Shown piece by piece: positions 25,073-62,342 of a DNA stretch of 64,000 nt. The position numbers were made by a program, and so were the translations under genes. Source of the stretch: Candidatus Bathyarchaeia archaeon (GTDB taxonomy: Archaea > Thermoproteota > Bathyarchaeia > TCS64). Each line of letters begins with the position of its first letter. Positions within the stretch are counted from its first letter, which is position 1. The notes under the pieces were generated by a model, which did no database searches, was not told the origin of the DNA, and saw nothing but the letters and a program-made list of their open reading frames with translations. Location of the stretch: assembly GCA_050014495.1 (NCBI GenBank), contig JBEKDF010000010.1, positions 20,094-84,093 of the forward strand, given 5' to 3'.

Positions 25073-25184
25073 CGAGATCATGCAGCTCCTTCCGCTTCGA
25101 GCCGCTCGTCTTCAGCGTCGTGATGTAGCCACCCAGAGCACACGCGCGCAACGGGAGTCGACAAAGGGGGCCCTATTCAGTAAA

Positions 25185-25199
25185 TGGCGGGCCCGGTGG
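25185..25199 (-). repeat. att-like copy 1 of tRNA-Arg 3' end
   Basis: TGGCGGGCCCGGTGG, 15/15 identical to 32339-32353. Confidence 0.8.
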
Positions 25200-25286
25200 T
25201 ATCCACCTAAAAGATTATTCCATAAGTATGCACGCGCGCGCAAGTACACGCTAGGGTTAAAAAAGGCATTAATCTAACTGTAGTTT

Positions 25287-26444
25287 ATGGCATCGATGAA
25301 GATTCTGGACGACATTCGAGTCGTGGATCTAACTGATCACTGGTTTGGCCCATGGTGCACCCTCCTCCTAGCAGAACTAGGGGCTGATGTGATTAAAGTT
25401 GAGCCGACGTGGGGAGCCACGGCGAGAATCGGAGGTGGACAACGCCTGGGTGGTTCAGACCCAGTCTTTCACTACCTGAATATGAACAAGAAGAGCCTCT
25501 CCATCAACCTGAAGGCAGATCAGGGCCACATGATCTTCATGGAGCTCGTGAAGAGGTCAGACATCGTTGTCCAGAACTATCTCCCCGGCGTAATGGAGAG
25601 ACTCGGCCTAGGATACGACGCCCTCAGGGAGGCTAATCCTAGAATCATCTATGCAGCCCTCAGTGGCTTCGGTCAGTACGGGCCCTACTCAAATAGAGCC
25701 TCATTCGACGTCGTAGCTGAGGCCATGAGCGGCCACACTCGCTTGACCGGGGACCTAGTTGACCCAAATGGTCCGCCTCTTAACATGGCTGAGAGCTATG
25801 GGGACCTCGGACCTGGAACCGTTGCAGCTTATTGCATCATGGCAGCGATCCGAAACAGGGATAGAAAGGGAATCGGGCAGATGTTGGATGTAGCGCAGGC
25901 CGATTGCATGGTCGCCTTGAACCCGGCTATAGTTGAATATTCGATGACGGGTCTGCTGCCGTGGCAGATCCGTGAGAGGTACCCTACGACTCATATCAGC
26001 GGGATAGTTAAGGCGAGTGATGGGTGGGTTCAGGTAGCCGGATTCAGACCGAGGGCCCTCGACGCCCTCAAGGAGAAGCTGGGTGTGGAGGTTGTGACGC
26101 TGGCTGCTGTGAAGGAGATGGTGAGCGGTATGACGCGAGATGAGGCTGTGGAGTACTTCGTGGATATCGGCATGCCCGTCGCCCCCGTTTACCAGGTGAA
26201 CGAGAGCCTTGAAGACCCTCATCTTAATGCGAGAGGCATGTTCATCGAGGTTGAGCATAGTAAGGTGGGGAAATTTAGGACGGTGAACTTCCCCGTCAAG
26301 TTCTCTGACACGCCAGGTGAGGTGAAGTCCGCCGCCCCGCTCATTGGGCAGCATAACAGGGAGATCCTCAAGGGGCTGCTGGGCTACGATGAAGAGCGAA
26401 TCGTGGAGCTTGAGAAAGGAGGCATCATCTATACGGACAAATAG
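25287..26444 (+). CDS. CaiB/BaiF family III CoA-transferase
   Basis: LAELGADVIKVE, NKKSLSINLK, QNYLPGVMERLGLGY, SGFGQYGPY, AP.IGQHN. Confidence 0.93.
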   Translation: MASMKILDDIRVVDLTDHWFGPWCTLLLAELGADVIKVEPTWGATARIGGGQRLGGSDPVFHYLNMNKKSLSINLKADQGHMIFMELVKRSDIVVQNYLPGVMERLGLGYDALREANPRIIYAALSGFGQYGPYSNRASFDVVAEAMSGHTRLTGDLVDPNGPPLNMAESYGDLGPGTVAAYCIMAAIRNRDRKGIGQMLDVAQADCMVALNPAIVEYSMTGLLPWQIRERYPTTHISGIVKASDGWVQVAGFRPRALDALKEKLGVEVVTLAAVKEMVSGMTRDEAVEYFVDIGMPVAPVYQVNESLEDPHLNARGMFIEVEHSKVGKFRTVNFPVKFSDTPGEVKSAAPLIGQHNREILKGLLGYDEERIVELEKGGIIYTDK

Positions 26445-26965
26445 AGGACAAAAGCGTATTTTATACCCTATTTCGGGGATTTTTTCTGTGTGTTTTTCAG
26501 CCCTATATATCATTAACTAACATTACACAAGAGTGTGTGCGCGCATGTCAAGCATTAATCTTCACAGTTGAGCATCAAATGGAAGTGAGGATAAGCGCGC
26601 GCGGGGAGTGCTTAGAGTTTATCAGTGAATTTGCAGACTTTTGGTCAACTTGTCGTTGTAAGCATTTTAAGCGGGTTTATACCGTAGACCGTAAGAATAA
26701 TAAGTGCCATTCAAAGCTTTCATCTATAAAGATACTAGAATAAGAATGAGGAAAAGGAGCTCGATAAGAAAATAAGAAAAATGTTTAAACAGAATATCCG
26801 GAAAAAGAAGCATAGCAGGACCAGGGTTAACGTAATTGTTGCAGCGAGGGTTGCCACAGCCAAAACCCTGACAAAAAATGATGCGCTCAGCCTCGGACAA
26901 TAATGAAAAAGCGTTATGTGGAGCTACGAGAGTGTCTCATGGGAGTCTTAGAGGAGGGCTGAGAG

Positions 26966-27538
26966 ATGAGTGAAACAAGTCCTTATGATGTGGAGATACA
27001 GAACGTCGTCGCGTCGGTGACCCTCGACCAGAAGATAAACCTTCTCGACATCATGAAGGTCTTCAGGAACGTGGAGTATAGGCCAAAGCAATTCCCTGGA
27101 CTCGTCTTCAGGCTTAAGCGGCCGAAGACAGCGACCCTCATATTCGGCAGTGGTAAGATGGTCTGCACGGGGGCGAAGTCGGAGAAGCAGGCGAGGAGCG
27201 CGGTGAAGAAGGTGGTCAGGGAGCTGAAGACGAACGGGATCATCATACTCGGGAAGCCAAAGATAGTGATCCAGAACATGGTCGCCTCCGCGAACCTCCA
27301 CGGCAAAGTAGACCTGGAGACGATGTCTGACGTCCTGGAGCACGTTATGTACGAGCCTGAGCAGTTCCCCGGCGCCATCTATAGGATGACGGAGCCCAAG
27401 GTGGTCCTGCTGGTATTCGCCTCGGGGAAGCTCGTGATCACCGGGGCCAAGAGGGAGGAGCAGGTTCATGAGGCCGCTGACAAGATCAGAGCCATCCTGA
27501 TCGATTACGATCTGCTTTTCTTGGGAGAAGATCTCTAG
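26966..27538 (+). CDS. tbp: TATA-box-binding protein
   Basis: Two TBP repeats: IQNVVAS...Y.P.QFPGL...LIFGSGKMVCTGAKS and IQNMVAS...YEPEQFPG...LVFASGKLVITGAK. Confidence 0.97.
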   Translation: MSETSPYDVEIQNVVASVTLDQKINLLDIMKVFRNVEYRPKQFPGLVFRLKRPKTATLIFGSGKMVCTGAKSEKQARSAVKKVVRELKTNGIIILGKPKIVIQNMVASANLHGKVDLETMSDVLEHVMYEPEQFPGAIYRMTEPKVVLLVFASGKLVITGAKREEQVHEAADKIRAILIDYDLLFLGEDL

Positions 27539-27671
27539 TACTAGCTCGCGTGCACCCATTCTTTATCTATGAATCAGAGTACTCTCACCTAAGAAGTTGA
27601 GGCTCTTCATGCGCGCGCGATTCTCGCCTGCCTTGAAAATACCCTGATCATGAACTGAGGTGTAGGATTAG

Positions 27672-27695
27672 TGGCGGGCTCGGTGGGATTTGAAC
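27672..27695 (-). repeat. att-like copy 2 of tRNA-Arg 3' end
   Basis: TGGCGGGCTCGGTGGGATTTGAAC, 23/24 match to 32339-32362. Confidence 0.88.
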
Positions 27696-27775
27696 GCGTA
27701 GATTCGTGGAGATGTCACCCGCAAATCCCATTTTTTTTATTATTCTGAATAAATAATCAGCGTATTTTACCACGG

Positions 27776-29866
27776 TTAAATAGGTGTCACCTGGCATAGC
27801 TGCGATTTATATGCGGGGAAACCTGATATCGGGTCCAAGTTTTTATCATCGCATAGAAGATTCACGTTTAATTCGTCTGGCCATAGATGGGGTAGATGCA
27901 CTACACCTGGTAATGTCGTGTCTGTTATGTTGGCCTTTACTATTACGCTGCCCCTAGAAGAGCTGACCATTACCCTTTGTCTTTGCTCGATTTTTCTCTT
28001 CTCGGCGTCATCGGGGTGGATCTCTAGGAGTGGCTCTGGTACCATTTCTCGAAGCTTCTTTATGTTTCTATACTGGGAGTTGGTGAAGTTGACCGTCCGT
28101 GCCCCTGTTGTGAGCACCAGCGGATATTTTTCCGCTAACTTTGGTGTACTTATGGGGCTCTCAGCTGGTTCCCTATAGATGGGTAGGGGTTCGTACCCAT
28201 GCTTTCTTAATATGCTGGACTCGATCTCAACCTTCCCTGAAGGTGTCTTGAAGCCCGTCGCTTCATATTGTTTAATCGACTTAGCTGGCATAGGGTACAT
28301 GATCCCGTCGGGAGTTTTCCTGAGTTTCTTCACGGTGAGCCCTATCGGCTCTAGAATTTCATTGAAGCACTTCTCTATGTCGCCGTTCCAGTACTCATCG
28401 TCTAATCCTAGTCGTTTCGCCAACTCATAGTATATTTTCCACTCCGGCCAGGATTCGCCTACTGGCTCTATAGAGGGTTCGATGAGCCATACATGTCCCC
28501 CTTCTCTGGTTAAGAGTATGTCTCGTTCTAGCCATGTGGATATTGGCAGAACTATATCGCTAATTCGTGTGGCGGGTGTGTGGAAGAAGTCGATGTCGAC
28601 GATTAGTTCTAGTTGTTTTAGTGTGTCTTCTAGCCTACGGCTGTTGGGGAAGAACTGTAGATTCAATCCCGCTGCCACTAGGGCTCTTATTGGGTAGGGT
28701 TTGCTGGTTAGGATCTGTTCCACTATTGCGTTCGCCTGCATCTCCTCAAAGAGCTCTGTGAAGACTGGGAAACGCTGTGCCCCAACCCCTTGAGGCATGT
28801 CTTTTACCTTCTCTTGCAGGGTGATCTGCTTTGTTGGTGGTTTTTCGGGGGAGCTTCTGTTACCTCCCGGGACTTCAATGTTTCCTAGTATGGCCGGTAT
28901 CAGGTAGATTGCTCGAGTGTTCTGCACTCCATTCTGGTGGTGTACAGTGGCTTCCGGACTCGTCATGATCTTGCTTGGAGTATTTTTAGCGAACATCAAA
29001 GCTGCTTCTCGGATTTTTTCTGCTGGGACCCAGGTGATTTTCTCCACTTTCTTTGGTGGATAGTCCTGTACGAGTTCTCTAAGTTTATCGAAGCCCACCG
29101 TCCATTTGTTCACGAATTCTTTGTCGTAAAGATTTTCGTTTATGATGATATTCATCATTCCGAGTGCAAGGGCGCCATCTGTTCCCGGGCGCAGCTGGAG
29201 ATGTATGTCGGCGATGCCTGCTATCTGAGTCTTCCTGGGATCAACGACGATGTATTTTAGTCTCCTCTCCTTAGCGTCGAGGCAGTTCTTCCAGTTGAGT
29301 GGAGTAGAGTGTCTCACGGCGGAGCCCCAAATCATCATGCATTTACATTCCGGATCTATCTGCCTCGAGTTTACGAGGAAGTTCCCATAGTCTTTACCGA
29401 AGTTCAGTGTAGCGGCGAGCCAGGTCGCCGAGAAGCAGCTGCTTGTCTCAGTAGTGTAGTTAGGGGACCCGTAGGCGTGTACGAGGCGGCGAAGGTATGG
29501 TCGTGGCTCCTTGGTATATGCCACGTAGAAGACAGTTTCCTCTGGTCCACTCTCCTTTTTAATTTCCAGTAATTTTTTGGCGACTGTATCCAGGGCTTCA
29601 CTCCACGAGATTTCTTTAAACTCCCCTGTCCCTCTCTCGCCTACTCGCTTCAAGGGATGTAGAATGCGTTCAGGATGATAGACGAAGTCAAGCTGCGCCT
29701 TCCATCTAGGACAGAACTCTCTCGCTTGTTCGTTAAGCATCTCAATTTTTTTCGCTTTCCCATTGACTACATGGACTTTTATTGGGCAATAGCTGTCACA
29801 CATGTAGCAGGCGCCTGGCTTAAGTGAGGTGCCTAGCTTCTCCAGAGGCGACTTTTCATTTGCCAT
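27776..29866 (-). CDS. Molybdopterin (DMSO reductase family) oxidoreductase catalytic subunit
   Basis: CYMCDSYC...FCPR Fe-S motif, ERILHPLKRVGERG, SWSEALD, PGTDGAL, TPSGKVE, C-terminal molydop-binding domain. Confidence 0.92.
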   Translation of the reverse strand: MANEKSPLEKLGTSLKPGACYMCDSYCPIKVHVVNGKAKKIEMLNEQAREFCPRWKAQLDFVYHPERILHPLKRVGERGTGEFKEISWSEALDTVAKKLLEIKKESGPEETVFYVAYTKEPRPYLRRLVHAYGSPNYTTETSSCFSATWLAATLNFGKDYGNFLVNSRQIDPECKCMMIWGSAVRHSTPLNWKNCLDAKERRLKYIVVDPRKTQIAGIADIHLQLRPGTDGALALGMMNIIINENLYDKEFVNKWTVGFDKLRELVQDYPPKKVEKITWVPAEKIREAALMFAKNTPSKIMTSPEATVHHQNGVQNTRAIYLIPAILGNIEVPGGNRSSPEKPPTKQITLQEKVKDMPQGVGAQRFPVFTELFEEMQANAIVEQILTSKPYPIRALVAAGLNLQFFPNSRRLEDTLKQLELIVDIDFFHTPATRISDIVLPISTWLERDILLTREGGHVWLIEPSIEPVGESWPEWKIYYELAKRLGLDDEYWNGDIEKCFNEILEPIGLTVKKLRKTPDGIMYPMPAKSIKQYEATGFKTPSGKVEIESSILRKHGYEPLPIYREPAESPISTPKLAEKYPLVLTTGARTVNFTNSQYRNIKKLREMVPEPLLEIHPDDAEKRKIEQRQRVMVSSSRGSVIVKANITDTTLPGVVHLPHLWPDELNVNLLCDDKNLDPISGFPAYKSQLCQVTPI

Positions 29867-29928
29867 AGTTAATGATTAACGTGGTCTAGTAATTATTTAC
29901 TTTGCGCGCGCATAGTGTGAGGATAAGA

Positions 29929-30172
29929 TTATTGAGTAGAAGGAGTTTCAGTTTTAAAGGTATCCTGAGAAGGAGAAGCAAAAAGCATCTCTGGGTGATC
30001 CTTCTCATACTCTTTTAATCGATTATAGAGGTACTCAGTATCATAGCCAATCCGCGGAAAATTGTATTCCTTCCTTATCGCCTTAATCCCCTTTTCTATA
30101 TGCTCCCAAACATTAACCGTGCTACCCCCCATCAGCTTAGCCACGAACCTTATGTCTATGAGACCCTCGCCG
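29929..30172 (-). pseudogene. C-terminal fragment of a DUF4760-like protein
   Basis: EGLIDIRFVAKLMGG....WE......IR......R....TEYLY..LK resembles the C-terminal half of that family (recognised by eye). The resemblance ends at the CG tract at 30173-30182. Confidence 0.55.
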
Positions 30173-30250
30173 ACACGCGCACGATGGCAGTCGAATAAAA
30201 CAAGCCTTGTCCCGTACAAACGTCATTGAAAGCGGGTCCTGTTCAGTAAA

Positions 30251-30275
30251 TAGCGGGCCTGGTGGGATTCGAACC
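30251..30275 (-). repeat. att-like copy 3 of tRNA-Arg 3' end
   Basis: TAGCGGGCCTGGTGGGATTCGAACC, 22/25 match to 32339-32363. Confidence 0.85.
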
Positions 30276-30343
30276 GCGCGCGCACATGCGAGCTAATTTA
30301 CAAATAGACGCTTTAAAAAGTGGTAAAATCAATGGCACCCGTA

Positions 30344-31129
30344 TTATTTTTTACCTGCAAATCTTTCCATTTTTTTAAGGATCCTTTGCATTTCTAATTC
30401 CGGATTAGAAATTCTCTCTTTAATACTCTTCACTATGCTTTTTAAATCATCACTTTTCAGAGTGTATGGTTCAACACCATTAGAGTATGATCTTGTATAC
30501 ATAAATGAATCACCCATTAACTCATCTGCAACGGTTTTCTTCACTGAAGCATTTTCAATCATTAAGTGATAATAATCAGGATTTTTATCCCAATTAATAT
30601 GTTTAAGTAAAAGCATTTTTAATCTATTAGGTATTTCCTGCACCAAATTATAGAGAAATATATTCAAAGCCAACGTTTCCTTAGTGATGACCATATAATA
30701 ATTATCGCCATCAAAATCTAACTTCTCTGATTTAGGTAAAGATAAGCTTTCTAGAATTATATAATCAACATGTGATCTTAGTGAAATCTCCTCAAACTGT
30801 TTATTCTTAACTTTAATCTCATTATTTAATAATGATATTTTAAAATCTCTATTTGATAACTCTCTCTTTAGCTCATCTATAATTGAACCGCTAATATCTA
30901 CTAAGTTACCGCTATTGATGAACATGTTGTATAGTTGCGCAACCCTATTTGCGATAATTGGAGTAATCTCTGTGTCACCTAAAATCGAGTACGACTCACC
31001 CTTTGCGAAACCTTTTGGCCTTCCAAGACTTCTAAAACTAATTACTTTCAAATCCAGATCTATGGCATCTGGGTTTAGAGTCGATAACGCCGCGTATTTT
31101 CCGCATAGAGGGCAGACTAGGTGACTCAT
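30344..31129 (-). CDS. Hypothetical AT-rich protein with N-terminal CxxC and coiled coil
   Basis: HLVCPLCGK; very low GC compared with flanking genes. Confidence 0.7.
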   Translation of the reverse strand: MSHLVCPLCGKYAALSTLNPDAIDLDLKVISFRSLGRPKGFAKGESYSILGDTEITPIIANRVAQLYNMFINSGNLVDISGSIIDELKRELSNRDFKISLLNNEIKVKNKQFEEISLRSHVDYIILESLSLPKSEKLDFDGDNYYMVITKETLALNIFLYNLVQEIPNRLKMLLLKHINWDKNPDYYHLMIENASVKKTVADELMGDSFMYTRSYSNGVEPYTLKSDDLKSIVKSIKERISNPELEMQRILKKMERFAGKK

Positions 31130-31211
31130 GAAGGAGATGTTAAGTAATCTGGAATAAATCATTTCTAATATTTATCTTCAATTTGGAAAATTATAATAGT
31201 TGAAAAAGATA

Positions 31212-31763
31212 TTACCCGGTTTTTTGCTTTATATGTGAATTTAGATAGGCAAGTATCGCTTCATCAAGAAAGGCAGGGCAGACCTCGCAAACAACTGCGT
31301 TGGACATCATAAGCCACACAGGAGTTTTATCGCCCGATCCCTTCACCTTTTTTAACAACATTTTCAATTCTTTCTCATTAAGCTCTTCAGAATACTTGGG
31401 TGGTCTATCCATACGCCAGTAATCGCAGAACCCATCAGCATCTATATGTAGACATCGAATCATTTTATGCTTAATTAAATCGTCCTTTATATTTTCCAAG
31501 AACTTGATAAATGGATCATATTTTTCATCTGGTTTTATTTGAGTATTAACGGGCTCCTTAGTAAACTCGTTGCGACCAGTTGGATTTCGGGTCGCATCCT
31601 CGATCAAGGTCCATAATTCGTCACTATAACGCCCAAGTCCATACTCCTTCGTTCCCTTACGTCTACTAATATATTGAATACCTTTTCGCATTTTTTTCCT
31701 AAACGTCCAACCTTCAACAACGAATGCTCGTAAATCCTCCTTACTGACGAGTCGTTTAGACAT
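31212..31763 (-). CDS. Hypothetical basic protein with Cys motifs
   Basis: GWTFRKK..KG..YI..RKG..E..LG; C..H...GFC..W ... CEVCP. Confidence 0.7.
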   Translation of the reverse strand: MSKRLVSKEDLRAFVVEGWTFRKKMRKGIQYISRRKGTKEYGLGRYSDELWTLIEDATRNPTGRNEFTKEPVNTQIKPDEKYDPFIKFLENIKDDLIKHKMIRCLHIDADGFCDYWRMDRPPKYSEELNEKELKMLLKKVKGSGDKTPVWLMMSNAVVCEVCPAFLDEAILAYLNSHIKQKTG

Positions 31764-31859
31764 AGAGATTCAATGTAGATTATTAACCGATGCCGATTAA
31801 AAGTTGATCAGATATATAAAACACAGTTCACTTCGCTCTCCTGAAAAGCCGATCTATCA

Positions 31860-32207
31860 GTCCCCCCTTGTCTCCCAGAGTCCCCCAATGATATTATTAA
31901 GAATTACAAGGTACTGAAGTCGTTGTACAAATGTAATAGAATTCAGCTTTCACTTTTACGTCCCCCTGATTCCCCGGACATTATGGGGGACAACGCCGAT
32001 CATATGGAGGAGAAGAACATATTTTTTTCTTATTCCGGTCCCCCAATACGGGGGGCTAGAATAAATAGGGTACCCTAAATTTATTTTAGGCTGGGGGACA
32101 ACTAGGGGTTCTACAAAAAAATTTCAAACAGTTTAAATTTAGTACGGGGAAGCGTACATATATAACGAGTAAATATTTAACATGGATTTTAGTCCCCCAT
32201 GTCCCCC
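31860..32207. repeat. Cluster of GTCCCCC heptamers (iteron-like)
   Basis: Plus strand at 31860, 31880, 31960, 32038, 32192, 32201; minus strand at 31985-31991 and 32093-32099; all in AT-rich non-coding DNA. Confidence 0.7.
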
Positions 32208-32338
32208 GATGTCTTAAGAGAAAATCGAATATATTATACCGAGAAGGAAACTAATGTGATAAGTTAGGTGGTTTGAATCCTATCTCATTATTCTTTGTTT
32301 TAGGTGCAAATTTTAGATTGTAAATGGGACAATTTTGA

Positions 32339-32416
32339 TGGCGGGCCCGGTGGGATTTGAACCCACGACCCCAGACTTAGGAGGCCTGTGCTCTATCCGT
32401 GCTGAGCTACGGGTCC
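32339..32416 (-). tRNA. tRNA-Arg (anticodon CCT), intronless, CCA encoded
   Basis: Reverse complement GGACCCG TAGCTCAGCACGGATAGAGC A CAGGC CT CCT AA GTCTG GGGTC GTGGG TTCAAAT CCCAC CGGGCCC GCCA folds as a cloverleaf. Confidence 0.95.
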
Positions 32417-32434
32417 ACGAACCCGCCTAACCTA

Positions 32435-34282
32435 CTAACTGCCCCAATTTAAAAATAGCCCTGCAGGAGCCACACGAACCCCACCGCCTCCTCCACCGAA
32501 TCCACCGCCACCACCGAACCCGCCTCCGCCACCGTGGAACCCTCCACCGCTTCCGCTACGACTAGCCGGCGGTGTAGCGATGATGATTGGCCTAAACCAC
32601 AGCGGCATTATGGGGGCAAATCGAGCCATGTCGATATTGACGTTGAGTTCCCTCATGGCCTGCGCGACTCGATCACCCACCCCAAGGGCCGTCCCATAGA
32701 CGAGCCAGTCACCCCACATTGAGATGTCCTCCGTCGGATACTTTCTCAGCTGCGCTAGGTCCCCAAGGTGGTTTCTGAAGGCGCCCCACTCGAGCTTCTC
32801 CTTGAACATCCCTGGACGCCACTTGCCAAAGAGTGTCGAGGGGAAGACGAGGGCAATGACGCATTGCACCACTGCTATCGTCCCGAGAACGAACGGAGTC
32901 ACTAGAAGGTAGCCAACAATTGGTGATGTCGCGATAATTAGGATAGATGCCGCGAAGACTGCGACACCTAGGAGGGCAACTGGAAGGATCTTGAGCCTGC
33001 CACCTACAGCGAAGTCCTTAACGACGCTCCCATCAACGTGGTGCGTCAAACCGTCGAGGTCGTCCTTGATCACTAGGGCCTGCGTCTCGCTTCCCCTACC
33101 ATTGCTGATGTCATGGGCAAGGTCGCGGAGAGTATCGGTGTCAAACACACCGTTAACCGCGAGCTTCTGGAGGAATCCAATCACTCTACCCTCATAGGGG
33201 TCGTCCACGTTCCCGTCGAGTATGTGGATCTTCATGCCATGCTCCCTAGGCTCCAGCTGCAGCTTCTTCCTCAGGTGCAGGTCCAGTAGCGTGGCGTAGA
33301 AACCGTCCTCATCGAAATCGTAGATCTCCTTCCTGAAGATGAGGTTGACTAACCAGGGTTTCCGATCCTTGTTCGGAACAGTGCTCAGGTAGGTTGGTAC
33401 AGTCGCCTCCTCTTCGCGCCCGAATCTCATGTATACCCAGATTAGCAGGAGTGGCACTGCGAAGACAACTATAATCGCAGCGTAGCCGAGCCAATTCGCC
33501 GCGCTGTACTGGAGACTGGTCCAGAAGTTGGCGCTATCGGTCTTCCCCTTAACGTCTGGTACAGGTGACCTGAACGCGTCGAAGTGGCTCGCCCCCGGGG
33601 TCATCAGCAGCTCGACCTCGAGCAACTCGTTCTCCGCCGAGCTACCCGTTATTATAATCTGATCGCCGGTTCGGGTCACGCTTAGGCTAGGCGGATGCTG
33701 ATAAACTTCTACCACATAGGAGGCGTTCTCGATGACAATCTTCACATTATTGTAAGGGACGTGAACATCTGCGAATAGCAGGTTTAGGTGGTCATAGCTT
33801 GAGTCATACTCTATAGGGGGGTATAGGTTGAAAGTGTATCCTATATGGTAGCTACCCGGGAGAAACTGTTGGGGATAGAAACAGCCAATTTCATTCAAAT
33901 CGGCCAAGCTGTCGATCGTGTCGCTCACGATCGGGCCTGCATTGGGTGACTCTACAGTGACTTGCCCCAACCAGTCCTTTACATACGCCACCGACCCCGC
34001 CGGCGGATCTATTTTCACGGGCTTGATGTATGGTTGATCCAGAGACGTAAGGGAAACCGGAGCCTCCCAGCTACGGTACAGCATCCTGTACTGCTGCACA
34101 GTGAAGGTGTATGTGTAATCCTCCCTGAGGGTTCCGTTGCTCATGAAGTGGGCCTCGTAGCTACTCACAACAGCAGGCCCCGTCTTTGTGTAACCCTCGA
34201 GCGCCGATGTGGCCGCTACCCCAACTATTGCGAGGGCGAGACCCAACACGACGATTATAGCTATCTGTCTGCTCTCATCCAT
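32435..34282 (-). CDS. DUF2207-family membrane protein
   Basis: Large extracellular domain, TM segments, WGDWLVYGTALG, Gly-rich GGGFGGGGGG tail; paired with LemA. Confidence 0.88.
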   Translation of the reverse strand: MDESRQIAIIVVLGLALAIVGVAATSALEGYTKTGPAVVSSYEAHFMSNGTLREDYTYTFTVQQYRMLYRSWEAPVSLTSLDQPYIKPVKIDPPAGSVAYVKDWLGQVTVESPNAGPIVSDTIDSLADLNEIGCFYPQQFLPGSYHIGYTFNLYPPIEYDSSYDHLNLLFADVHVPYNNVKIVIENASYVVEVYQHPPSLSVTRTGDQIIITGSSAENELLEVELLMTPGASHFDAFRSPVPDVKGKTDSANFWTSLQYSAANWLGYAAIIVVFAVPLLLIWVYMRFGREEEATVPTYLSTVPNKDRKPWLVNLIFRKEIYDFDEDGFYATLLDLHLRKKLQLEPREHGMKIHILDGNVDDPYEGRVIGFLQKLAVNGVFDTDTLRDLAHDISNGRGSETQALVIKDDLDGLTHHVDGSVVKDFAVGGRLKILPVALLGVAVFAASILIIATSPIVGYLLVTPFVLGTIAVVQCVIALVFPSTLFGKWRPGMFKEKLEWGAFRNHLGDLAQLRKYPTEDISMWGDWLVYGTALGVGDRVAQAMRELNVNIDMARFAPIMPLWFRPIIIATPPASRSGSGGGFHGGGGGFGGGGGFGGGGGGVRVAPAGLFLNWGS

Positions 34283-34853
34283 TCGGACCAATCCCCGTTG
34301 CCTTTGGTGGAGTCTCTATCTCGTCGCCAAACTTCAGATAGTCAAGTTTCTTCAAGCCTAGGGCTCCTGCGACGAAGTTGGTGGGGATCGTGTCGACCAT
34401 CGTGTTGAACTCCTGCACTACATTATTGTAGGTGTACCTCTGTCGCCCGATCTCCTCCTCAAGACTCGCAATAGCGTCCATCAGCTTCTTCACAGTCTCC
34501 GAGGCCTTGAGGTCGGGATAGGCCTCAGCTACGGCGCGAATGCTTCCGAAGAGGTTTGCGCTCTCCTTCTGTATGTCGGCTAGATTCGCTGGCCCAGCGT
34601 TCACAACCTGTGCACGAAGTTCCGCGACTTTTTCAAATACATCCCTCTCGAACTTCGTGTACCCCTGAACTGCCCCTAGGAGCTGTTCGATCATGTCGAA
34701 CCTCTTCTTCATTGCGACCCTGATCTGGCCCAGCTCAGCATCAGCTGCGTTCCTGAAACGGAATAGGCGGTTGTAAGCAGAAATGAAGAGCCATATGATG
34801 GCTAGTAGTATGACTAAAATTACTCCGATTAGGATCAAAGTAAAAGTATCCAC
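34275..34853 (-). CDS. lemA: LemA family protein
   Basis: N-terminal TM, YNRL, KRFDMI.QL, AVAEAYPDLKAS, YNNVV.EFN. Confidence 0.93.
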   Translation of the reverse strand: MDTFTLILIGVILVILLAIIWLFISAYNRLFRFRNAADAELGQIRVAMKKRFDMIEQLLGAVQGYTKFERDVFEKVAELRAQVVNAGPANLADIQKESANLFGSIRAVAEAYPDLKASETVKKLMDAIASLEEEIGRQRYTYNNVVQEFNTMVDTIPTNFVAGALGLKKLDYLKFGDEIETPPKATGIGPNG

Positions 34854-35037
34854 GGTTATCCCCCGATGTTATATAGTTGTTCATATGTTAAAAGCGATAC
34901 GCATTACTCATTTGCAATTTGATAACTGAACCATCTAAAACGTGAAATATTTAACTAATTTCACTTCAATCTTCATCGATCTGAGCAATTTCAGTATAAT
35001 TAAAGCCTAATAAGGCTGAGAGGCCTAAGGAGTCGAC

Positions 35038-35331
35038 ATGGAGCCTGCTCTGAGGGGCATCATAGAGAAGGTAATTGATGAGGAACTCAGCGAGGACAAG
35101 CTTAGCAGTAACTTCGGCGTCTTCACAGCCTTCATGAACCGCGGCCTCATTGATTCAGTCAGCAGCGCCATGTTCGGTCGCGTCTACATGCGTGCCTACC
35201 AAGCATGGCTAGACTACAAGGCGAACCACGCCGAGGAGCCACGCCCAGAGGAAGCAGTGGAACTCGTCAGAATATTTGAGTCTCGAGCCATAGAGATCAA
35301 ATCAAAAATAAGTGAGATAGCGAGCCTCTAA
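35038..35331 (+). CDS. Hypothetical protein
   Basis: 97-aa helical ORF preceded by an AGGAG RBS-like sequence. Confidence 0.7.
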   Translation: MEPALRGIIEKVIDEELSEDKLSSNFGVFTAFMNRGLIDSVSSAMFGRVYMRAYQAWLDYKANHAEEPRPEEAVELVRIFESRAIEIKSKISEIASL

Positions 35332-35375
35332 AAGGAAAGCGTTAATCACGATCATTCATCTTACTAATAATAACC

Positions 35376-36155
35376 TTGGCTCTCGAGGAGAAGTACGTCC
35401 CTGAGGGGGATTATGAGGATTACGCATCCAGGCTTGATGGGCTCAGGGCTAGGGTCGTCGCAGTGCTACCTCTCGAGCCGAGGATGAGGGTCCTCGATGT
35501 CGCGACTGGTTCGGCGCTCTTTGCTATCGAGCTCGCGAAACGAGACCCAACCCTAAAGATCGTGGCCATAGACGTATCCGATAAGGCTATCAAAATCGCG
35601 GACCGCCGCATCAGGGAGAGGTGGCTTGACCCACATGTCACCACCATGAAGATGGATGCCACCCGTCTAGAGTTCCAGGGTGGAAGCTTTGGTCTAGCCA
35701 CTAATTTCATGGGACTCGACGACGTGGACATGACCCGGGGTGATCAGGGGGTTCGGCAGGCGTTTCACGAGGTGGCGCGTGTCCTCAAGCCAAGGGGATT
35801 CTTCTGCTTCACCGTGATCCCTCCTGAGGAGGCCGAGACTGCAGCGCAGAGACTGGAATCTGAGGTCTACGCCTACGCATCTGGTGCGAAGTGGCTCCCA
35901 GCTATCCGCTATCAAGAGTATCTGAGGGGCGCTGGCTTCACCCTAGTAAAGAGGGAGGTCTTCTACACCGGTAAGAAGCTAGGTGCAGCACAGGCACGTC
36001 TGGAGATCGAGGCTTCAATAGAGAACGCGAGGAGCCACGACGTGGAAGCTCTACCATTTGAGGAGGTGTGGAAGAAGTACGGTAAAGAAATTGAGAAGAA
36101 TGGCCTCGGCCACGCTTCCCGAGTCGTCCTCATGATAACTAGGAGGAACATCTAG
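35376..36155 (+). CDS. Class I SAM-dependent methyltransferase
   Basis: VLDVATGSA, AIDVS, MDA, RVLKP.G. Confidence 0.9.
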   Translation: MALEEKYVPEGDYEDYASRLDGLRARVVAVLPLEPRMRVLDVATGSALFAIELAKRDPTLKIVAIDVSDKAIKIADRRIRERWLDPHVTTMKMDATRLEFQGGSFGLATNFMGLDDVDMTRGDQGVRQAFHEVARVLKPRGFFCFTVIPPEEAETAAQRLESEVYAYASGAKWLPAIRYQEYLRGAGFTLVKREVFYTGKKLGAAQARLEIEASIENARSHDVEALPFEEVWKKYGKEIEKNGLGHASRVVLMITRRNI

Positions 36156-37330
36156 AGCAAGTAGATTGTTCTCTCGGTATTCGTTAGGAGCTTTAACCCC
36201 TTCTTAGTCACCATGACCGTGTCCTCCATCTCTATCCCTCCCCAACCTAGATCTAGGAACGGCACGTCGATGTTCAGCACCATCCCCTCCTCTATCTTGG
36301 TCTTTTCTCCCAGACACACCCAAGGCCGCTCGTTGGCTTCTGTACCTAAACAGTGGCCAAGGCTCATGCTACACTCCTTCACACCACCCTTCTCGAGTTC
36401 CTTCTGGGCGCTTGCATAGACATCGCCGAAGGTGGCACCGGGACGTGCGGAGTCGAAAGCGGCCTCCTGAGCGTCTATGACGGTCTTTAACCTCTTCTCG
36501 ACCTCTGGAGAGGCCTTCCCCATTACCGCGGTTCGGGTCACATTGCCGTTGTAGTGGCCCCAATCGGATCCGAGGCTCATCCGGATCAGGTCCCCTTTTC
36601 TGAGCTGAAGCGTGGTCGGTATAGGGTTCGGGTAAGCACTCCTCTCCCCAAAACCTATTTGACCACTGGTCACGATCCCACCATCCTCAGCGACACTGTA
36701 GCTGTACATCTTGCTCATGTCGAGCTCCATAATATCCGGTTGAGCAATCTCGAGGGCATCCTCCATCGACTTCTCCGTTACCTCTACTGCCTTCTTTATG
36801 AGATCTATCTCCTCGAAGGTCTTCACAGCTCTAATCTCATCGAGGATCGCAGAACCTTCGACGATCTTTGCATCAGGAAGGTTGCGTTTTATGTTCTCCC
36901 AGCGGATAGAGTTTATGCCACGATTGTCAACAGCTATTGTCTTTTTAGCAAGACCCCTGTTAGTGACAGCTATTACAAGGGAGTCGCAAGGGGTCTGCTC
37001 AGCACTCGCCTTAGTCGCCTCAATTATCATCCGCGTTATATCTGATGCCGTCGAGTTCTCGGAGGTATTTACCTTAAGACAACCGTACCAGTGGATATCC
37101 TTAATCCAGCTTCTGCTCTCGGCAACTAGGTCGGCCTCGGAGAGCGGGGCCATGAGAGCAGGCTCAGCATCTAGTGGGAGGAGGGCGTAACCCTGCGATC
37201 CGCACCCAAGTTGCATACCAGTACCAAAATAGTCTGAGACATAGAACACATTCGCCGGGGAGGCAGCGAGGATGGCATCCACACCCACCCTCTCCATGAC
37301 CTGCTTGGCTCTCTCTTTATTTAGGGGCAT
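36152..37330 (-). CDS. Xaa-Pro peptidase (M24) family protein
   Basis: NVFYVS, RAVKT.EEI, LGHCLG...E.P, GGIEMEDT. Several metal ligands are diverged. Confidence 0.85.
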   Translation of the reverse strand: MPLNKERAKQVMERVGVDAILAASPANVFYVSDYFGTGMQLGCGSQGYALLPLDAEPALMAPLSEADLVAESRSWIKDIHWYGCLKVNTSENSTASDITRMIIEATKASAEQTPCDSLVIAVTNRGLAKKTIAVDNRGINSIRWENIKRNLPDAKIVEGSAILDEIRAVKTFEEIDLIKKAVEVTEKSMEDALEIAQPDIMELDMSKMYSYSVAEDGGIVTSGQIGFGERSAYPNPIPTTLQLRKGDLIRMSLGSDWGHYNGNVTRTAVMGKASPEVEKRLKTVIDAQEAAFDSARPGATFGDVYASAQKELEKGGVKECSMSLGHCLGTEANERPWVCLGEKTKIEEGMVLNIDVPFLDLGWGGIEMEDTVMVTKKGLKLLTNTERTIYLL

Positions 37331-37921
37331 TGCTGGACATCTACTTGTTACCTCGATAGTTTTTAAAATAAGCGCCAAGAAAATCGGTTTAAAACTATTT
37401 CAGAACCCAATCCGAGCCTCTCTCCGTCCACACGATAAGGCTTTAGGATCCTTAGAGATGAGCGCGCAAAAAAAAGGGTCGCGATTCAATAACTTTTAGC
37501 TTGGATAGAGTAGGGTCTATAGCGAGAAAATGTCTTCATTACACGATTTTGCTTCGAAAGGTCTCCTAATCGGGTTCATTTTTTAGCCTATTTTAGTAAA
37601 TAGAGTCTTTAATGCGCGATTTAGGGTACACCCTACTACACTTTTTAAAACACGGCATTTTCAAGCTTTCCTAACGACCTCTAAATATTGAATGAGGAAT
37701 GCAGAAGGCTATAATAATTTTCGGTGCCGCGCGCGCAAGCCTAGATAGCCACAAACATGGACACAAAGCCGGATGACTCAAGCACTAAGGAGCTTCTCAA
37801 CATTCCGTCGACTCCTATGGCTACCCACACCGATAATAGAGGGAATATTTTTTTCGACACCTTTTGTTTTGACATATCCATTATGTTAAATCTACTCCTC
37901 GCCTTCATCGACGGCTCATCA

Positions 37922-38950: not shown

Positions 38951-39179
38951 TTCATGAGCACGGCGTCTCTCTTAATCGCTGTGAAGCTCAAATATAACCG
39001 GGTTGCTCAACTGCTCCGAAACATTAACGCCATTCCAAACTTTTGCTTCATTCTCGAAAAAGAGATTATTCGCATCAACAAACATTTGATTAAATTGCGA
39101 GCGCGCAATGAGTAAGGATTCTCCGAAAGTATAGTCGAGTGATTAGGTTCTCGCTAAATTATTTAGAAAAACCTAGTTT

Positions 39180-39353
39180 CTAAGCTGGTCTATGCTTCGA
39201 GAAACAATCTCTACAATACACTGGCCGACCTGCTGTAGGCTTGAACGGAACTTCGCAAACCTTACCACAATCCGAACATGTTACCTTCGTTGCTTCACGG
39301 GAACGTTCCCTGGGTTCACTGCCAGGCTTTCTTTTATCAAAGTATACTGTCAT
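39180..39353 (-). CDS. CxxC-x17-CxxC zinc-ribbon protein (57 aa, missing from ORF track)
   Basis: Manual translation: MTVYFDKRKPGSEPRERSREATKVTCSDCGKVCEVPFKPTAGRPVYCRDCFSKHRPA. Confidence 0.88.
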   Translation of the reverse strand: MTVYFDKRKPGSEPRERSREATKVTCSDCGKVCEVPFKPTAGRPVYCRDCFSKHRPA

Positions 39354-39606
39354 TTTCACATTTCACCGCATATAGGTTACCCCTGAGGCTCCCTGTAGCA
39401 GAGTACGGAGGCGTGCTAGAGGTTAAACCTATGTAATTTACCAACGCGCGCACTTTGAGCCAACGAGACTCAATATGCTGGTTAGGATGATATGGATGGG
39501 CATAACAAGTTCATTTTTCTTAAAAGAATAACAAAAACATTCCGCAAGTTTCTTTTATAAAAAGAGGTTTTTTTAACTTCGGCTACAGAGAAAGACGTGA
39601 TCAAGT

Positions 39607-40071
39607 TTGAACCTCGATAAACCAATCAGGGAGTTCATGAAGCAGAAACCAATCTTCGTAACCACCACCAACACCCTTGGCGAGGTCGCCAAGGCCATGA
39701 GCAATGGGCGAAAGGATGTCGCAGTCGTAAAGGACAAGAAGGGTGAAGTTCAGGGCATAGTCACAAGCCACGACCTCTTCGATGCAATGGTAACTTGGGT
39801 TCTTCAGAAGGATATGCTCGAGCAGATACCACGCGATATCAGGGAGCTTAAGGTCACAAGCATCCTCAAGGGAGCCTATACTAAGGAGTTCATGGAGGCT
39901 TGCGGTCTCACCGGCACTAACGTCTGCATTACCCTCGGTGAGGATGACAAGCTCGCCAATGCAATAAGGGTCATGGCAGTCACCGGCCTCGACCACATAC
40001 TCATAAATGGCGAGGGCGGCGTCGTTGGAACATTAAGTGACGATGACCTAATCAAGGCATTCGAGGATTAG
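39607..40071 (+). CDS. CBS-domain protein
   Basis: Paired CBS motifs VQGIVTSHDL and VVGTLSDDDL. Confidence 0.85.
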   Translation: MNLDKPIREFMKQKPIFVTTTNTLGEVAKAMSNGRKDVAVVKDKKGEVQGIVTSHDLFDAMVTWVLQKDMLEQIPRDIRELKVTSILKGAYTKEFMEACGLTGTNVCITLGEDDKLANAIRVMAVTGLDHILINGEGGVVGTLSDDDLIKAFED

Positions 40072-49084: not shown

Positions 49085-49123
49085 GAGGAGTCAACGAACA
49101 AGAAGTAGGGGTTGGATAAAGAC

Positions 49124-50047: not shown

Positions 50048-50310
50048 AGAACCACTCCGAAAGACTAATATATGGAATCTGGCGGTGTTTATAACTCTTT
50101 CTGAAATGCTGCAGAATTGGCAGAAAGTGGGCATATTTAGCGAAACTGGGCTAAATATTCAGCTAATTTCGGCGAATAATTCGTAAAAATGACTGAAATT
50201 AGAAATGTTATCAATTCGTTGAATATTAAAGATGACTCTGATGAGGAGTTGTTTAAGGTACATTTATGAACCTCATGTGCTTCAAGTCTTGCATCTGAGA
50301 GTTGACATCA

Positions 50311-52959: not shown

Positions 52960-53232
52960 CCAACTTTAAATTACGAAATTAAAGTATTTTTTAGTCATGG
53001 CGCGAACGATTCGACTTTTATTCAGACCGACATGAGTCACCCTATGGAGATAAAACTTGTCGGTGAGGAGAGAATGGTGTGCTCGCGCTCGTGAATACGA
53101 TAGAATAGACAAGTTCACATATTTCCAACATTACAAGCCCTGAAGCAACGCGCGTTCGTAGTAGGGAGGCTCATGCGCCTCTGCCACTGAGGCGAGAAAA
53201 CCTCATCTATCTAACGCCACATATCCATCCCC

Positions 53233-57461: not shown

Positions 57462-57621
57462 ACCCGTAACAACCCAACACGAGGATAATTAATTTGCTCA
57501 GAAGATGATGCCTACGGGAATAGAACTTTTTCTACAAATCTCGGTGACCCTATTCGTGACCTCACAGTAATAATCCAGATTCAGGAGCGAGGGTAGCGCG
57601 CAAAAGACTTCGCCAAGTTGA

Positions 57622-60679: not shown

Positions 60680-60839
60680 TAGAACGAGCGGAAGTTCTGC
60701 GACAAACCCTCAGGAGTGTAACTTGGCAGACCTGAGTTTAACCGCTCGTCCGATTCGGAGAAGAGTACCCAGAAATATATACTTTATCGATTAGTAAAAG
60801 GAATGGTTAATTCAGTATATACTCAATAATCCCTGTTTT

Positions 60840-61280
60840 TTAGATAAGCTCAAGGGTCTTCGCTGCGGTCCAATCAACGTATTCATCGCAATGGGACTCG
60901 CCTCTGGCTCGGAGGTCTTCTCCCCGCTTAAATCTCTCTTCCGGAGTGCATCCCTCACAGCCGAGAAGACTACGACAGGCGACGTGCCCCCACTTCTTAT
61001 TGAATTCCTCGATGAGTTCCTGAGTCATCTTACGTTCCCTGAGCCGCATATCGTTGAACTGCTGTTCGGCTTCGTTGCCGTTTGTACCATATTTGAGGCC
61101 GATAGTCATCGCTCCCCCCAGCAGGGCACCACATATGTCCCCCCAGCCAGCTATGCCACCACCGAGGTTGGAAGCCACTCTGAGTATATTCGTGTCGTAA
61201 CTCGTTAGGGGGTGCTTTTCGTTAATGATCATAAGGGTGCTTTCGCAGCAGTTGAACCTGTGTCCATCTTTAACGATCAT
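60840..61280 (-). CDS. C-GCAxxG-C-C family putative redox protein
   Basis: FNCCES, GGG......CGAL.GG, C..L, HC. Confidence 0.85.
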   Translation of the reverse strand: MIVKDGHRFNCCESTLMIINEKHPLTSYDTNILRVASNLGGGIAGWGDICGALLGGAMTIGLKYGTNGNEAEQQFNDMRLRERKMTQELIEEFNKKWGHVACRSLLGCEGCTPEERFKRGEDLRARGESHCDEYVDWTAAKTLELI

Positions 61281-61312
61281 ATCCCTAGAATTTGCTTTGC
61301 TTAACTAAAAGG

Positions 61313-61933
61313 TTAGGCATGCCCGAAGAGAATAATCACTAATGGAGTAATAGTGACCTCAATCACTGCGGCGAGGATTAGAAGAGGGAAGACGCGGGTG
61401 ATGAAGAAACCTAGGGCGGTTTTCGCTTCTTTGATTACACTTCCCTGACCTCTTAGACTATTTAGCATAGTGTATCCTAGACTCATTCCCATGGACATAG
61501 AGAGGAGTATTGCTGGTATCTCGATTATACCGTGCGGAGTAAGCCCGGCGATGATGTAACCAAGTCCCTGCGTGGCTCCCAGATCATATGCTACCCACCC
61601 AACAGTGAATCCGTTAAAAATCACGAAGAAGAGTGGGAGTACTCCGCCTAGAAGCCCGCCGAACATGAAGAGGAGGCTCTTCAATATGTTGTTGGCAGCG
61701 ATAAAGGCAAAAAGTTCAAGTAAGGACATACTGGATATATTTGGAAAAGTCCCGAGTAGGTCCTGCAGAGCATTATCGTTCATGTTCCCTCCAAGAGCGT
61801 AACCCATGGCTAGGCTGAAGATGAAGAGGAAGCAGCAGATGAAGAAGATGGGCTTAAGTCTTCTCGCATAGTCTGCGTACTGCCCGAAGAATGCCTTTGT
61901 GAGCCCCTTTCGCTCGGGTTGCTGGTCGGTCAA
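61313..61933 (-). CDS. SpoIIM-family membrane protein
   Basis: IAANN, FNG..VG, PHGIIEIPA, AAVIE..ITP. Confidence 0.88.
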   Translation of the reverse strand: MTDQQPERKGLTKAFFGQYADYARRLKPIFFICCFLFIFSLAMGYALGGNMNDNALQDLLGTFPNISSMSLLELFAFIAANNILKSLLFMFGGLLGGVLPLFFVIFNGFTVGWVAYDLGATQGLGYIIAGLTPHGIIEIPAILLSMSMGMSLGYTMLNSLRGQGSVIKEAKTALGFFITRVFPLLILAAVIEVTITPLVIILFGHA

Positions 61934-62169
61934 ATTTTCCGCTCTCTTTCCATCTCCCTGAGACGAGCGGCCCTGATATCTCTTTCTAAAACGGTTTTTC
62001 TGTTATCGTTTCTAGCGTTCTCGGCGGCAGCTTCGGCAATTCTCAGGGCTAGCTCCCCTACAGTGCGCCTCATCTCCTCAGCGGCTTCCTCGCTAATTCT
62101 TAGGTCGCCTTGCTTCTTGATGAGCCTTCTCATAGGAGCGAGTGTAAACTCCTCAGCCAATTTTGACAC
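61930..62169 (-). CDS. Archaeal histone-fold protein (divergent)
   Basis: LAPMRRLIK..G..RIS..A...RKTV...DI; ATGA overlap with the spoIIM-like gene. Confidence 0.88.
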   Translation of the reverse strand: MSKLAEEFTLAPMRRLIKKQGDLRISEEAAEEMRRTVGELALRIAEAAAENARNDNRKTVLERDIRAARLREMERERKI

Positions 62170-62342
62170 CTGCCTGAATAGCTGTGTATGGGTTATTGAA
62201 GATTCTGAGGGGTTGCATCTACGATACTATTCGCGCGCGAAAATGTGTCTAATCAACTTGAATGGCTGTCGTAATGGTGCGCGTAAAGTCGAATAATGTC
62301 CCTGAAACTGTTATTATCCGGGCCCCCTTCATTACCTGAGAT

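What the first reader, a model, noticed from the sequence alone, without database searches (positions are those of the whole stretch)
25143..62239. (CG)n tracts mark module junctions and truncation points: possible unrecognised recombination or deletion system
Seen (manual scan): all seven pure CG runs of 8 bp or more are outside genes, mostly in AT-rich spacers (25233, 26595, 27611, 29904, 30275, 37728, 62232). Shorter alternating tracts also lie in spacers (25143, 26533-26548, 30173, 37462, 39101, 39445, 53149, 57596). They coincide with breakpoints. att copy 3 stops matching the tRNA exactly at CGCGCGCGC (30275), and att copy 2 stops at ACGCGT (27694). The DUF4760-like fragment loses its N-terminus at ACACGCGCAC (30173). 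Each att remnant, the CoA transferase, tbp, the Mo enzyme, dus and the CxxC-x17-CxxC gene is individually bracketed by such tracts. Established: alternating CG can adopt Z-DNA. Inference: these are crossover or target scars of a recombinase or transposase that shuffles single-gene cassettes, or of Z-DNA-triggered deletion.
Basis: partly seen in the sequence, partly recalled or inferred. Interest (0 to 1): 0.8.

Follow-up and report, generated by a model that had tools for sequence, protein, structure and literature searches.

The report
Written GC-repeat scars at DNA joins
In this peat archaeon, short GCGCGCGC runs sit where DNA was lost or rejoined and are missing from the intact versions of the same places, so they are likely self-pairing filler written by a still unidentified break-repair enzyme, which a family of jumping genes appears to use afterwards as landing sites.

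Summary
Observation confirmed. The window has 7 CG runs of 8 bp or more (shuffle mean 1); the genome has 459 (shuffles 30-45), 88% outside genes and nearly all 8-10 bp. Independent metagenomes bridge them.

They are not pre-existing recombination sites or Z-DNA triggers. At four places in this window, the longer strain allele lacks the run and the shorter allele has it at the join. In 87 of 92 junction sides with an in-genome homologue, the parent matches at most 2 bases of the run.

An IS5/IS1182-like clade sits in such runs with a 4-bp duplication (fits 42 of 47 elements), but it was found in only 8 of 32 run-rich genomes outside the family. One run-rich genome where no such element was found also carries non-parental TAGC-unit filler.

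Best reading (0.68): end joining with polymerase-written, self-complementary filler, with the IS as a later user. The enzyme was not found: Ku/LigD, PolX, reverse transcriptase, Y-family polymerase and a second Mre11 operon do not track the trait; primase is a weak guess.

The scan noted these runs before on other DNA, split between filler and transposon scar. I found no paper on it.

The parts
24149..24373 (.). 225 bp present here and replaced by GCGCGCGC in a strain in run X15; cuts an ORF whose paralogue spans the left break
   Evidence: tables 5 and 5c (one contig, depth 4.9, 39 letters on the short side); paralogue match 24036-24315
25143..25149 (.). 7-bp CG run inside a 13-bp purine/pyrimidine alternation
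25185..25199 (-). att remnant 1 (tRNA-Arg 3' end); ends without a run
25233..25241 (.). 9-bp run upstream of the CoA-transferase gene (25287-26444)
26533..26548 (.). 16-bp purine/pyrimidine alternation with a GCGCGC core
26595..26603 (.). 9-bp run that cuts a copy of the DUF4760-array spacer repeat; the parent repeat matches 1 base of the run
   Evidence: row C10_46688
26643..27550 (+). tbp segment; its 87% copy on contig C51 is bounded at both ends by runs that the window copy lacks at those positions
27611..27619 (.). 9-bp run; strain X9 has 24 more letters here and no alternating run
   Evidence: table 4
27672..27695 (-). att remnant 2; stops before GCGT (weak)
29904..29911 (.). 8-bp run between the molybdopterin enzyme gene and the DUF4760 fragment
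29929..30183 (-). C-terminal DUF4760-like fragment, cut at the alternating tract 30173-30183
   Evidence: (E 8e-4, under the cut-off)
30252..30283 (-). att remnant 3, ending in the 9-bp run 30275-30283 that the tRNA lacks
32339..32416 (-). tRNA-Arg(CCT), the parent of the att remnants
37462..37467 (.). 6-bp run
37728..37736 (.). 9-bp run; strain X9 has 58 other letters in place of 37724-37739
   Evidence: table 5
39101..39106 (.). 6-bp run on one side of the CxxC-x17-CxxC gene (39180-39353, minus strand)
39445..39451 (.). 7-bp run; strain X9 has 151 other letters in place of 39449-39452
   Evidence: table 5
53149..53154 (.). 6-bp intergenic run; parent not seen
57596..57601 (.). 6-bp intergenic run; parent not seen
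62232..62239 (.). 8-bp run between a histone gene (61930-62160) and emg1; parent not seen

Best explanation
The runs mark joins where DNA was lost or captured and are absent from the parent sequences, so they are likely filler written onto broken ends by a cellular polymerase during end joining, where self-pairing GC tails would act as universal sticky ends. Shown: the enrichment; the position at junctions; the absence from parent alleles; replaced lengths of 7 to 455 bp; lineage-specific filler (GC units here, GC plus TA units in G094). Inferred: that a break comes first, that each 3' end receives a tail that mostly starts with G, that the two tails anneal and are ligated, and that the IS5/IS1182-like clade later inserts into finished runs with a 4-bp duplication. 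The enzyme is not identified. The replicative primase PriSL is my best guess (about 0.25 overall), from published terminal-transfer and GC-pairing activity in another archaeon, not from any test here.
For: Strains: four places in 22000-40000 where the longer allele lacks the run and the shorter has it at the join (X15 at 24148/24374; X9 at 27611, 37728, 39445). Paralogues: 142 of 1290 flanks had a homologue up to the run; 37 were IS ends; of the other 105, 13 share the run, and of the remaining 92 the parent matches 0, 1 or 2 bases in 41, 35 and 11, and 4 or more in 3. A stricter repeat gave 53 of 55 at 2 or fewer. Two-sided in-genome cases: 7 bp replaced by 7 bp at C9:85303, and 455 bp of a transposase gene replaced at C33:31598. 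G094 has 432 runs of 8 or more, mostly G...C even-mers (160, 104, 15 against 8, 10, 1 that start with C), no hit to 11 IS proteins and no repeated 12-mer next to the runs, and no PF01609 hit. Its filler has a different alphabet: a non-parental A before the run in 9 of 24 junctions, and TAGC-unit runs that are non-parental in about 10 of 34 testable flanks and form the commonest non-coding period-4 repeat (286). That flavour is lineage-bound: G115 354, G086 187, G094 146, G000 3. A GCGC-duplicating element cannot leave such filler. PMC12019639 (abstract and passages): archaeal PriSL does terminal transfer, anneals ends through 2-4 GC pairs and repairs breaks with C/G-biased insertions.
Against: No writer was found. 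Ku is present in run-free G001 and G010 and was not found in run-rich G021 or G094. PolX is in nearly all of the family, run-free members included. PriS follows taxonomy; the trait needs 7 changes on its tree and no column separates rich from poor genomes, so a plain PriS variant does not explain the patchiness. The published PriSL indels are mostly 1-2 bp, not 8-10. G094 is a scaffold with 306 gaps, so an IS could be unassembled. The IS is somewhat commoner in run-rich genomes (8 of 32 against 23 of 208, hand count). At C5 the IS-free allele has only a 6-bp run plus 54 other letters while the IS allele has 9 and 8 bp, which also fits junctions written at IS insertion. Left and right run lengths at IS ends show no negative correlation (rho 0.04). 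The direction of change is clear at 24148 (paralogue spans the break) but is assumed from length at the three X9 sites. The X15 joint rests on one low-depth contig; letters were not shown for 37728 and 39445. The drop from 111 ten-mers to 5 eleven-mers is unexplained.
Confidence: 0.68

Rival explanations
1. Transposon scars: the IS5/IS1182-like clade carries or creates GCGC(GC) at its tips, inserts with a deletion of the target, and leaves 6-10 bp when it is excised.
For: Three terminal-repeat types all abut GCGCGC (48 ends in G000). The C5 insertion coincides with loss of 54 bp and with longer runs than the empty allele. IS still sit in 6-8 bp runs in genomes with 0-3 nine-mers. IS1272 of the IS1182 family replaces its target (PMC5678879, passages), and an IS5/IS1182 move with a deletion and no duplication is reported (10.1101/2024.06.02.596822, passages). 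Two G114 copies share an A at the same tip.
Against: A 4-bp direct repeat fits 42 of 47 complete elements and a 6-bp one only 28; one copy duplicates ACGC, so the tip letters come from the target. Parents at scars lack GCGC (3 of 92 sides). IS not found in 24 of 32 run-rich genomes outside the family, and found in genomes with 0-3 nine-mers. It does not account for the TAGC filler.
Confidence: 0.17
2. Templated capture: broken ends copy a few bases from an existing run, or from a short fixed template of about 10 nt, by template switching, so the runs spread themselves without a tailing enzyme.
For: Excess of 1-2 nt matches between parent and run (46 of 92 sides against about a quarter by chance) and the sharp limit at 10 bp in G000.
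Against: No bases next to a donor run are carried along. The limit is looser in G094 and G021. No reverse transcriptase in 5 of 5 genomes searched.
Confidence: 0.08
3. One reading: crossover sites of a recombinase that shuffles single-gene cassettes.
For: Segments bounded by runs at both ends occur in two places (tbp on C51; a 213-bp segment twice on C25).
Against: The sites are missing from parents, have no binding arms, and cut genes, tRNA remnants and transposases internally.
Confidence: 0.04
4. One reading: Z-DNA formed by the runs triggers deletions.
For: Alternating CG can form Z-DNA (established); runs above 10 bp are scarce, which may reflect instability.
Against: The runs appear after the deletion, not before. 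The Z-alpha search was uninformative because its control did not ring.
Confidence: 0.02
5. Assembly or library artefact.
For: All genomes used are metagenome assemblies; only contigs, no raw reads, were laid.
Against: Identical bridging in run X6 and gap-free alignment of strain X9 across 29904-30283; the trait recurs in dozens of unrelated assemblies with lineage-bound flavour.
Confidence: 0.01

Closest known systems
Primase (PriSL)-mediated microhomology end joining in Saccharolobus islandicus (PMC12019639; abstract and passages seen)
   Same: Archaeal break repair with terminal transfer, annealing through a few GC pairs and C/G-biased insertions.
   Different: Reported indels are mostly 1-2 bp; no stereotyped 8-10 bp alternating filler in the passages seen; here PriS does not track the trait.
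Ku/LigD non-homologous end joining of bacteria and Methanocella; N-nucleotides of TdT and Pol mu (recalled, apart from the introduction of PMC12019639)
   Same: Deletion plus non-parental bases at the join; G000 encodes LigD polymerase, Ku and ligase.
   Different: Filler here is regular and self-complementary; Ku is present in run-free and not found in several run-rich genomes.
Ab initio synthesis of short palindromic repeats by thermophilic polymerases (PMC10520511; passages seen)
   Same: Products are tandem self-complementary units, like (GC)n and (TAGC)n.
   Different: An in vitro reaction; not known as a junction filler in cells.
IS1182/IS5-family elements: IS1272 target replacement (PMC5678879) and IS-with-deletion events (10.1101/2024.06.02.596822); passages seen
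   Same: DDE_Tnp_1 plus DUF772 transposase, terminal inverted repeats, palindromic targets, deletions next to insertions.
   Different: This clade duplicates 4 bp in the middle of an alternating GC run, and scores below the NCBIfam cut-offs of IS1182 and IS5.
HIP1 octamer of cyanobacteria (recalled)
   Same: A short palindrome far above chance in a patchy set of lineages.
   Different: HIP1 is common in coding DNA; these runs are 88% non-coding and sit at rearrangement joins.

Membership tests
Ku/LigD NHEJ scar | Ku, LigD polymerase and ligase encoded | tested here: met
   G000 C3 locus
Ku/LigD NHEJ scar | Scars occur with Ku/LigD and not without | tested here: not met
   Ku in G001 and G010 (0 and 1 nine-mers), not found in G021 or G094
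PriSL-type microhomology end joining | PriS and PriL present | tested here: met
   PriS in 5 of 5 and 29 of 30 genomes; PriL seen in G094 with a G000 homologue
PriSL-type microhomology end joining | Short G/C microhomology at joins | tested here: inconclusive
   1-2 nt match to the run in 46 of 92 sides, none in 41
PriSL-type microhomology end joining | A PriS variant tracks the trait | tested here: not met
   7 changes on the PriS tree, 116 of 500 shuffles as low, no separating column
PriSL-type microhomology end joining | The enzyme writes the filler in vitro or in vivo | not testable with these tools
   needs purified enzyme
Transposon excision footprint | Parent site holds the duplicated target | tested here: not met
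   4 or more matching bases in 3 of 92 sides; none at the X15 join or at 27611 in X9
Transposon excision footprint | Scars occur with the element | tested here: not met
   8 of 32 run-rich genomes outside the family carry it; assemblies are incomplete
IS5/IS1182 family (the element in the runs) | DDE_Tnp_1 and DUF772 domains, terminal inverted repeats, target duplication | tested here: met
IS5/IS1182 family (the element in the runs) | Reaches the curated family cut-off | tested here: not met
   IS1182 91-108 bits against 270; IS5_4 65-69 against 140
Site-specific cassette recombination (attC, pdif, att) | Site present on both partners before the event | tested here: not met
Site-specific cassette recombination (attC, pdif, att) | Conserved binding arms around the core | tested here: not met
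   flank base frequencies flat beyond position 2
Z-DNA deletion hot spot | Tract present before the deletion | tested here: not met
HIP1-type iterated palindrome | Spread through coding and non-coding DNA alike | tested here: not met
   57 of 459 in called genes, which cover 81% of the genome

The most novel reading that the evidence does not exclude
Bathyarchaeia have a dedicated, patchily inherited tailing enzyme that adds alternating self-complementary DNA tails (GC units in one lineage, GC and TA units in another) to any broken end without a nucleic-acid template. Every fragment can then be ligated to any other: a natural tailing-and-cloning system that drives island turnover, with a transposon clade specialised on its scars.
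Probability: 0.3. Interest if true: 0.9.

Novelty: new variant of a known kind. Interest (0 to 1): 0.72.

Why it matters
How most archaea rejoin broken DNA without Ku is an open question. These runs are a countable record of each join, with before and after alleles in public metagenomes, and the lineage-bound filler alphabet gives a sequence-level prediction for any candidate enzyme. Alternating GC is usually suppressed in prokaryotic genomes (PMC4060949, passages), so a more than tenfold excess is surprising in itself. A polymerase that writes self-pairing tails would also be a useful tool. The IS clade with a 4-bp duplication inside GC runs is a separate, testable case of a transposon aiming at repair scars.

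Tried and rejected
Candidate writers.
- Ku/LigD: does not track the trait.
- Reverse transcriptase: 0 of 5 genomes.
- PolX: 83 of 301; in run-free members of the family; full-length hits in only 5 of the 32 run-rich genomes outside it.
- PolB: no pattern in 5 genomes.
- Y-family polymerase: not found in G000 or G094.
- Prim-Pol PF09250: 0 of 5.
- PriS paralogue on C20: one short fragment in 5 genomes.
- Mobile AEP on C53: 12 of 301; 3 of its 4 hits outside the family are in run-rich genomes, but 4 of 7 in-family hits are in poor ones. Kept as a weak lead only.
- Second Mre11 operon: present in run-free G001, G010, G025 and G027; a close hit in only 1 of 30 run-rich genomes outside the family.
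- PriS residues and tree: nothing.
- Methyltransferase link: by motif only one Dam-like gene in G000 and none in G094; the motif scan is crude.
- Z-alpha: uninformative, control did not ring.
- Pfam scan of 256 of the 451 low-copy proteins shared by G000 and G094; I dropped by eye those that looked core or metabolic, and 23 crossed locus borders. No special polymerase; 67 of 256 had no family at 1e-12. Multi-copy and unshared proteins were not scanned.

Other tests.
- Whether the hexamer at IS tips varies more than element DNA: inconclusive, 8 of 258 against 49 of 1290.
- Negative correlation of left and right run lengths: not seen.
- G094 was first taken as a closed genome; it has 306 gaps.
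- The search for related loci gave only 3 loci.
- Rfam: only the tRNA in 23000-40000.
- Stretches without read cover were not used as evidence.

Literature searches that found no description of these runs. Most subscription papers are not in that library. No supplements were read.
Full report
Setting. The window is G000:C10:20094-84093 of a 3.1-Mb, 92-contig archaeal assembly held by peat, wetland and freshwater metagenomes. Record titles of related IS loci name the class Bathyarchaeia; the order name TCS64 comes only from an earlier scan note and was not checked.

The observation. Shuffles give 0.98 on average and at most 4 in 100. The genome holds 459, with lengths 8:192, 9:144, 10:111, 11:5 and 7 longer, against 30, 39 and 45 in three shuffles; other dinucleotide alternations fall off smoothly. 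Only 57 of 459 lie in genes called by my own simple caller, which cover 81% of the genome. Of 909 clustered ends of repeated segments, 52 fall within 5 bp of a run of 8 or more, a zone of 0.28% of the genome; IS ends are included in that count. Contigs of run X6 bridge eight of the listed places with no difference, so they are not chimeras.

The runs are not in the parents. Laying four runs on 22000-40000 showed four before/after pairs. In X15, 225 bp are replaced by GCGCGCGC, and neither break in the window has a GC run; a paralogue spans the left break, so the window is the older state. This rests on one contig of depth 4.9. In X9, the run at 27611 is replaced by a stretch 24 letters longer with no alternating run; 58 letters stand for 16 at 37728 and 151 for 4 at 39445 (letters not shown for these two). 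Inside G000, 142 of 1290 flanks of runs of 7 or more had a homologue reaching the run. After setting aside 37 IS ends and 13 sides that share the run, the parent matched 0, 1, 2, 3, 4 and 5 bases of the run in 41, 35, 11, 2, 2 and 1 of 92; a stricter version gave 53 of 55 at 2 or fewer. The tbp copy on C51 is clipped at both ends by runs that the window copy lacks. Runs cut a tRNA remnant, a DUF4760 gene, spacer repeats and a transposase gene internally. This excludes crossover sites and Z-DNA triggers, which must exist before the event.

The transposon. An element of about 1.1-1.3 kb with a DDE_Tnp_1 plus DUF772 transposase, nearest to IS1182 and IS5 but under both cut-offs, and its MITEs sit in the runs; 48 ends match in G000. 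Among 47 complete elements from G000 and fetched loci, a 4-bp direct repeat fits 42 and a 6-bp one 28. One copy duplicates ACGC. The inferred target is 8-10 bp in 27 of 42. Of the five misfits, one is an end misplaced by a base, one has an IS110 inserted, and three have a changed flank. So the tip letters come from the target. Against a clean picture: left and right lengths do not anticorrelate, the hexamer-variation test was inconclusive, elements in nearly run-free genomes still sit in 6-8 bp runs (most on small contigs that may be misbinned), and at C5 the empty allele in four runs has a 6-bp run plus 54-62 other letters where the IS allele has 9 and 8 bp. The last fits either a scar followed by insertion or junctions written at insertion.

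Distribution. In 301 genomes of the class the nine-mer count runs from 0 to 508 and is patchy within genera; a control nine-mer of the same make-up shows this is not GC content (G094 508 against 2, G271 190 against 1). By hand count, 32 of 240 genomes outside the family have at least 12 hits and at least twice the control; 8 of them carry the IS, against 23 of the other 208. The IS was thus not found in most run-rich genomes and is not sufficient, though incomplete assemblies and kinship weaken both statements.

A second alphabet. I read all of G094 (1.98 Mb, 39.6% GC, 306 gaps). It has 432 runs of 8 or more, mostly even-length and starting with G. It gave no hit to the IS, IS110, Ku or LigD polymerase, and no 12-mer next to a run occurs more than twice. 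Its runs are framed by TA, and the A is non-parental in 9 of 24 junctions. It also has runs of TAGC units up to 28 bp, non-parental in about 10 of 34 testable flanks, most of the rest being duplicate copies; they are the commonest non-coding period-4 repeat (286, then CGCG 200, then 64). This flavour is strong in G115, G086 and G094, weak in G156 and G036, and absent from G000 (50 genomes chosen by me). Filler built from two self-complementary dinucleotides is what a polymerase could write and a fixed-target transposon could not.

Mechanism. Most likely a break is trimmed, each 3' end receives an alternating tail, the tails pair because they are self-complementary, and the join is filled and ligated. 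These steps are inferred. Repeated rounds would leave single genes and att stubs bracketed by runs, as in the island next to tRNA-Arg here. The writer was not found: Ku/LigD, reverse transcriptase, PolX, PolB, Y-family, Prim-Pol, two extra AEPs and a second Mre11 operon do not track the trait, and a Pfam scan of 256 of 451 shared low-copy proteins showed no special polymerase. PriSL is the best guess because in Saccharolobus it does terminal transfer, pairs ends through 2-4 GC pairs and repairs breaks with C/G-biased insertions (PMC12019639, abstract and passages), but its tree and alignment do not separate rich from poor genomes. The 10-bp limit in G000 is unexplained.

What is known. Papers seen: PMC12019639 (abstract, passages), PMC5678879, 10.1101/2024.06.02.596822, PMC10520511 and PMC4060949 (passages), PMC3333859 (search listing only). 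TdT N-nucleotides, HIP1 and excision footprints are recalled. Nine searches found no description of these runs; the library lacks most subscription papers. Earlier notes of this scan report the same runs on other pieces of this genome and in other genomes, split between filler and transposon scar. I began at 50% transposon and 35% filler; moved me to filler. A word search of those notes for the TAGC flavour returned nothing.

Verdict. A real, non-artefactual scar of DNA joining; a new variant of end joining with filler; enzyme unknown; interest 0.72.

Noticed in passing
G000 contigs C24, C50, C72, C74, C75, C77, C84, C86 and others; remnants at window 26580-26595 and 29915-29936: A spacer repeat of about 40 bp (171 copies, 0 in G094) separates head-to-tail DUF4760-like genes in arrays, between a stop codon and the next start, like an integron cassette array but with no obvious attC hairpin; no integrase was looked for.
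   Followed up: partly
L059:959-2300 (G000 C17); also C48, and L010 and L034 in G012: An IS110-family element (NF033542 above cut-off) sits exactly between the GC run and the terminal repeat of the IS5-like element, at a CT core, in at least four loci: a likely RNA-guided element aimed at another transposon's end.
   Followed up: partly
G104 and G039 (control columns): GATC-unit repeats are raised (28 and 10 hits), a possible third filler flavour; G036 has AGCT-unit repeats (15) but almost no GC runs.
   Followed up: no
window 26966-27538 and 49124-50134 against G000 C51:7553-8460 and 13261-14248: Contig C51 carries second copies of both tbp (87%) and tfb (75%), the tbp copy clipped by runs.
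   Followed up: partly
window 27672-27741: att remnant 2 is followed by a stretch that matches tRNA-like sequence at high depth in all four runs laid and recurs at the start of C75; it may be a collapsed tRNA-like gene, not a plain att site.
   Followed up: no
window 24508-25151: Low-complexity Pro/Ala-rich reading frame with several small indels against strain X9, probably a decaying gene.
   Followed up: no
window 30865-32338: Strain X9 joins 31094 to the tRNA end at 32338 and lacks cover between, so the low-GC block next to the tRNA differs between strains.
   Followed up: no
L057:1284-3365 (G000 C53): A stand-alone PriS-like AEP next to an integrase-like gene in an integrated element; 12 of 301 genomes, often as broken fragments.
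   Followed up: partly
G094:C1:720082-726017: The only NurA-HerA-Mre11-Rad50 operon found has a short 677-aa Rad50 and is about 24% identical to both operons of G000.
   Followed up: no
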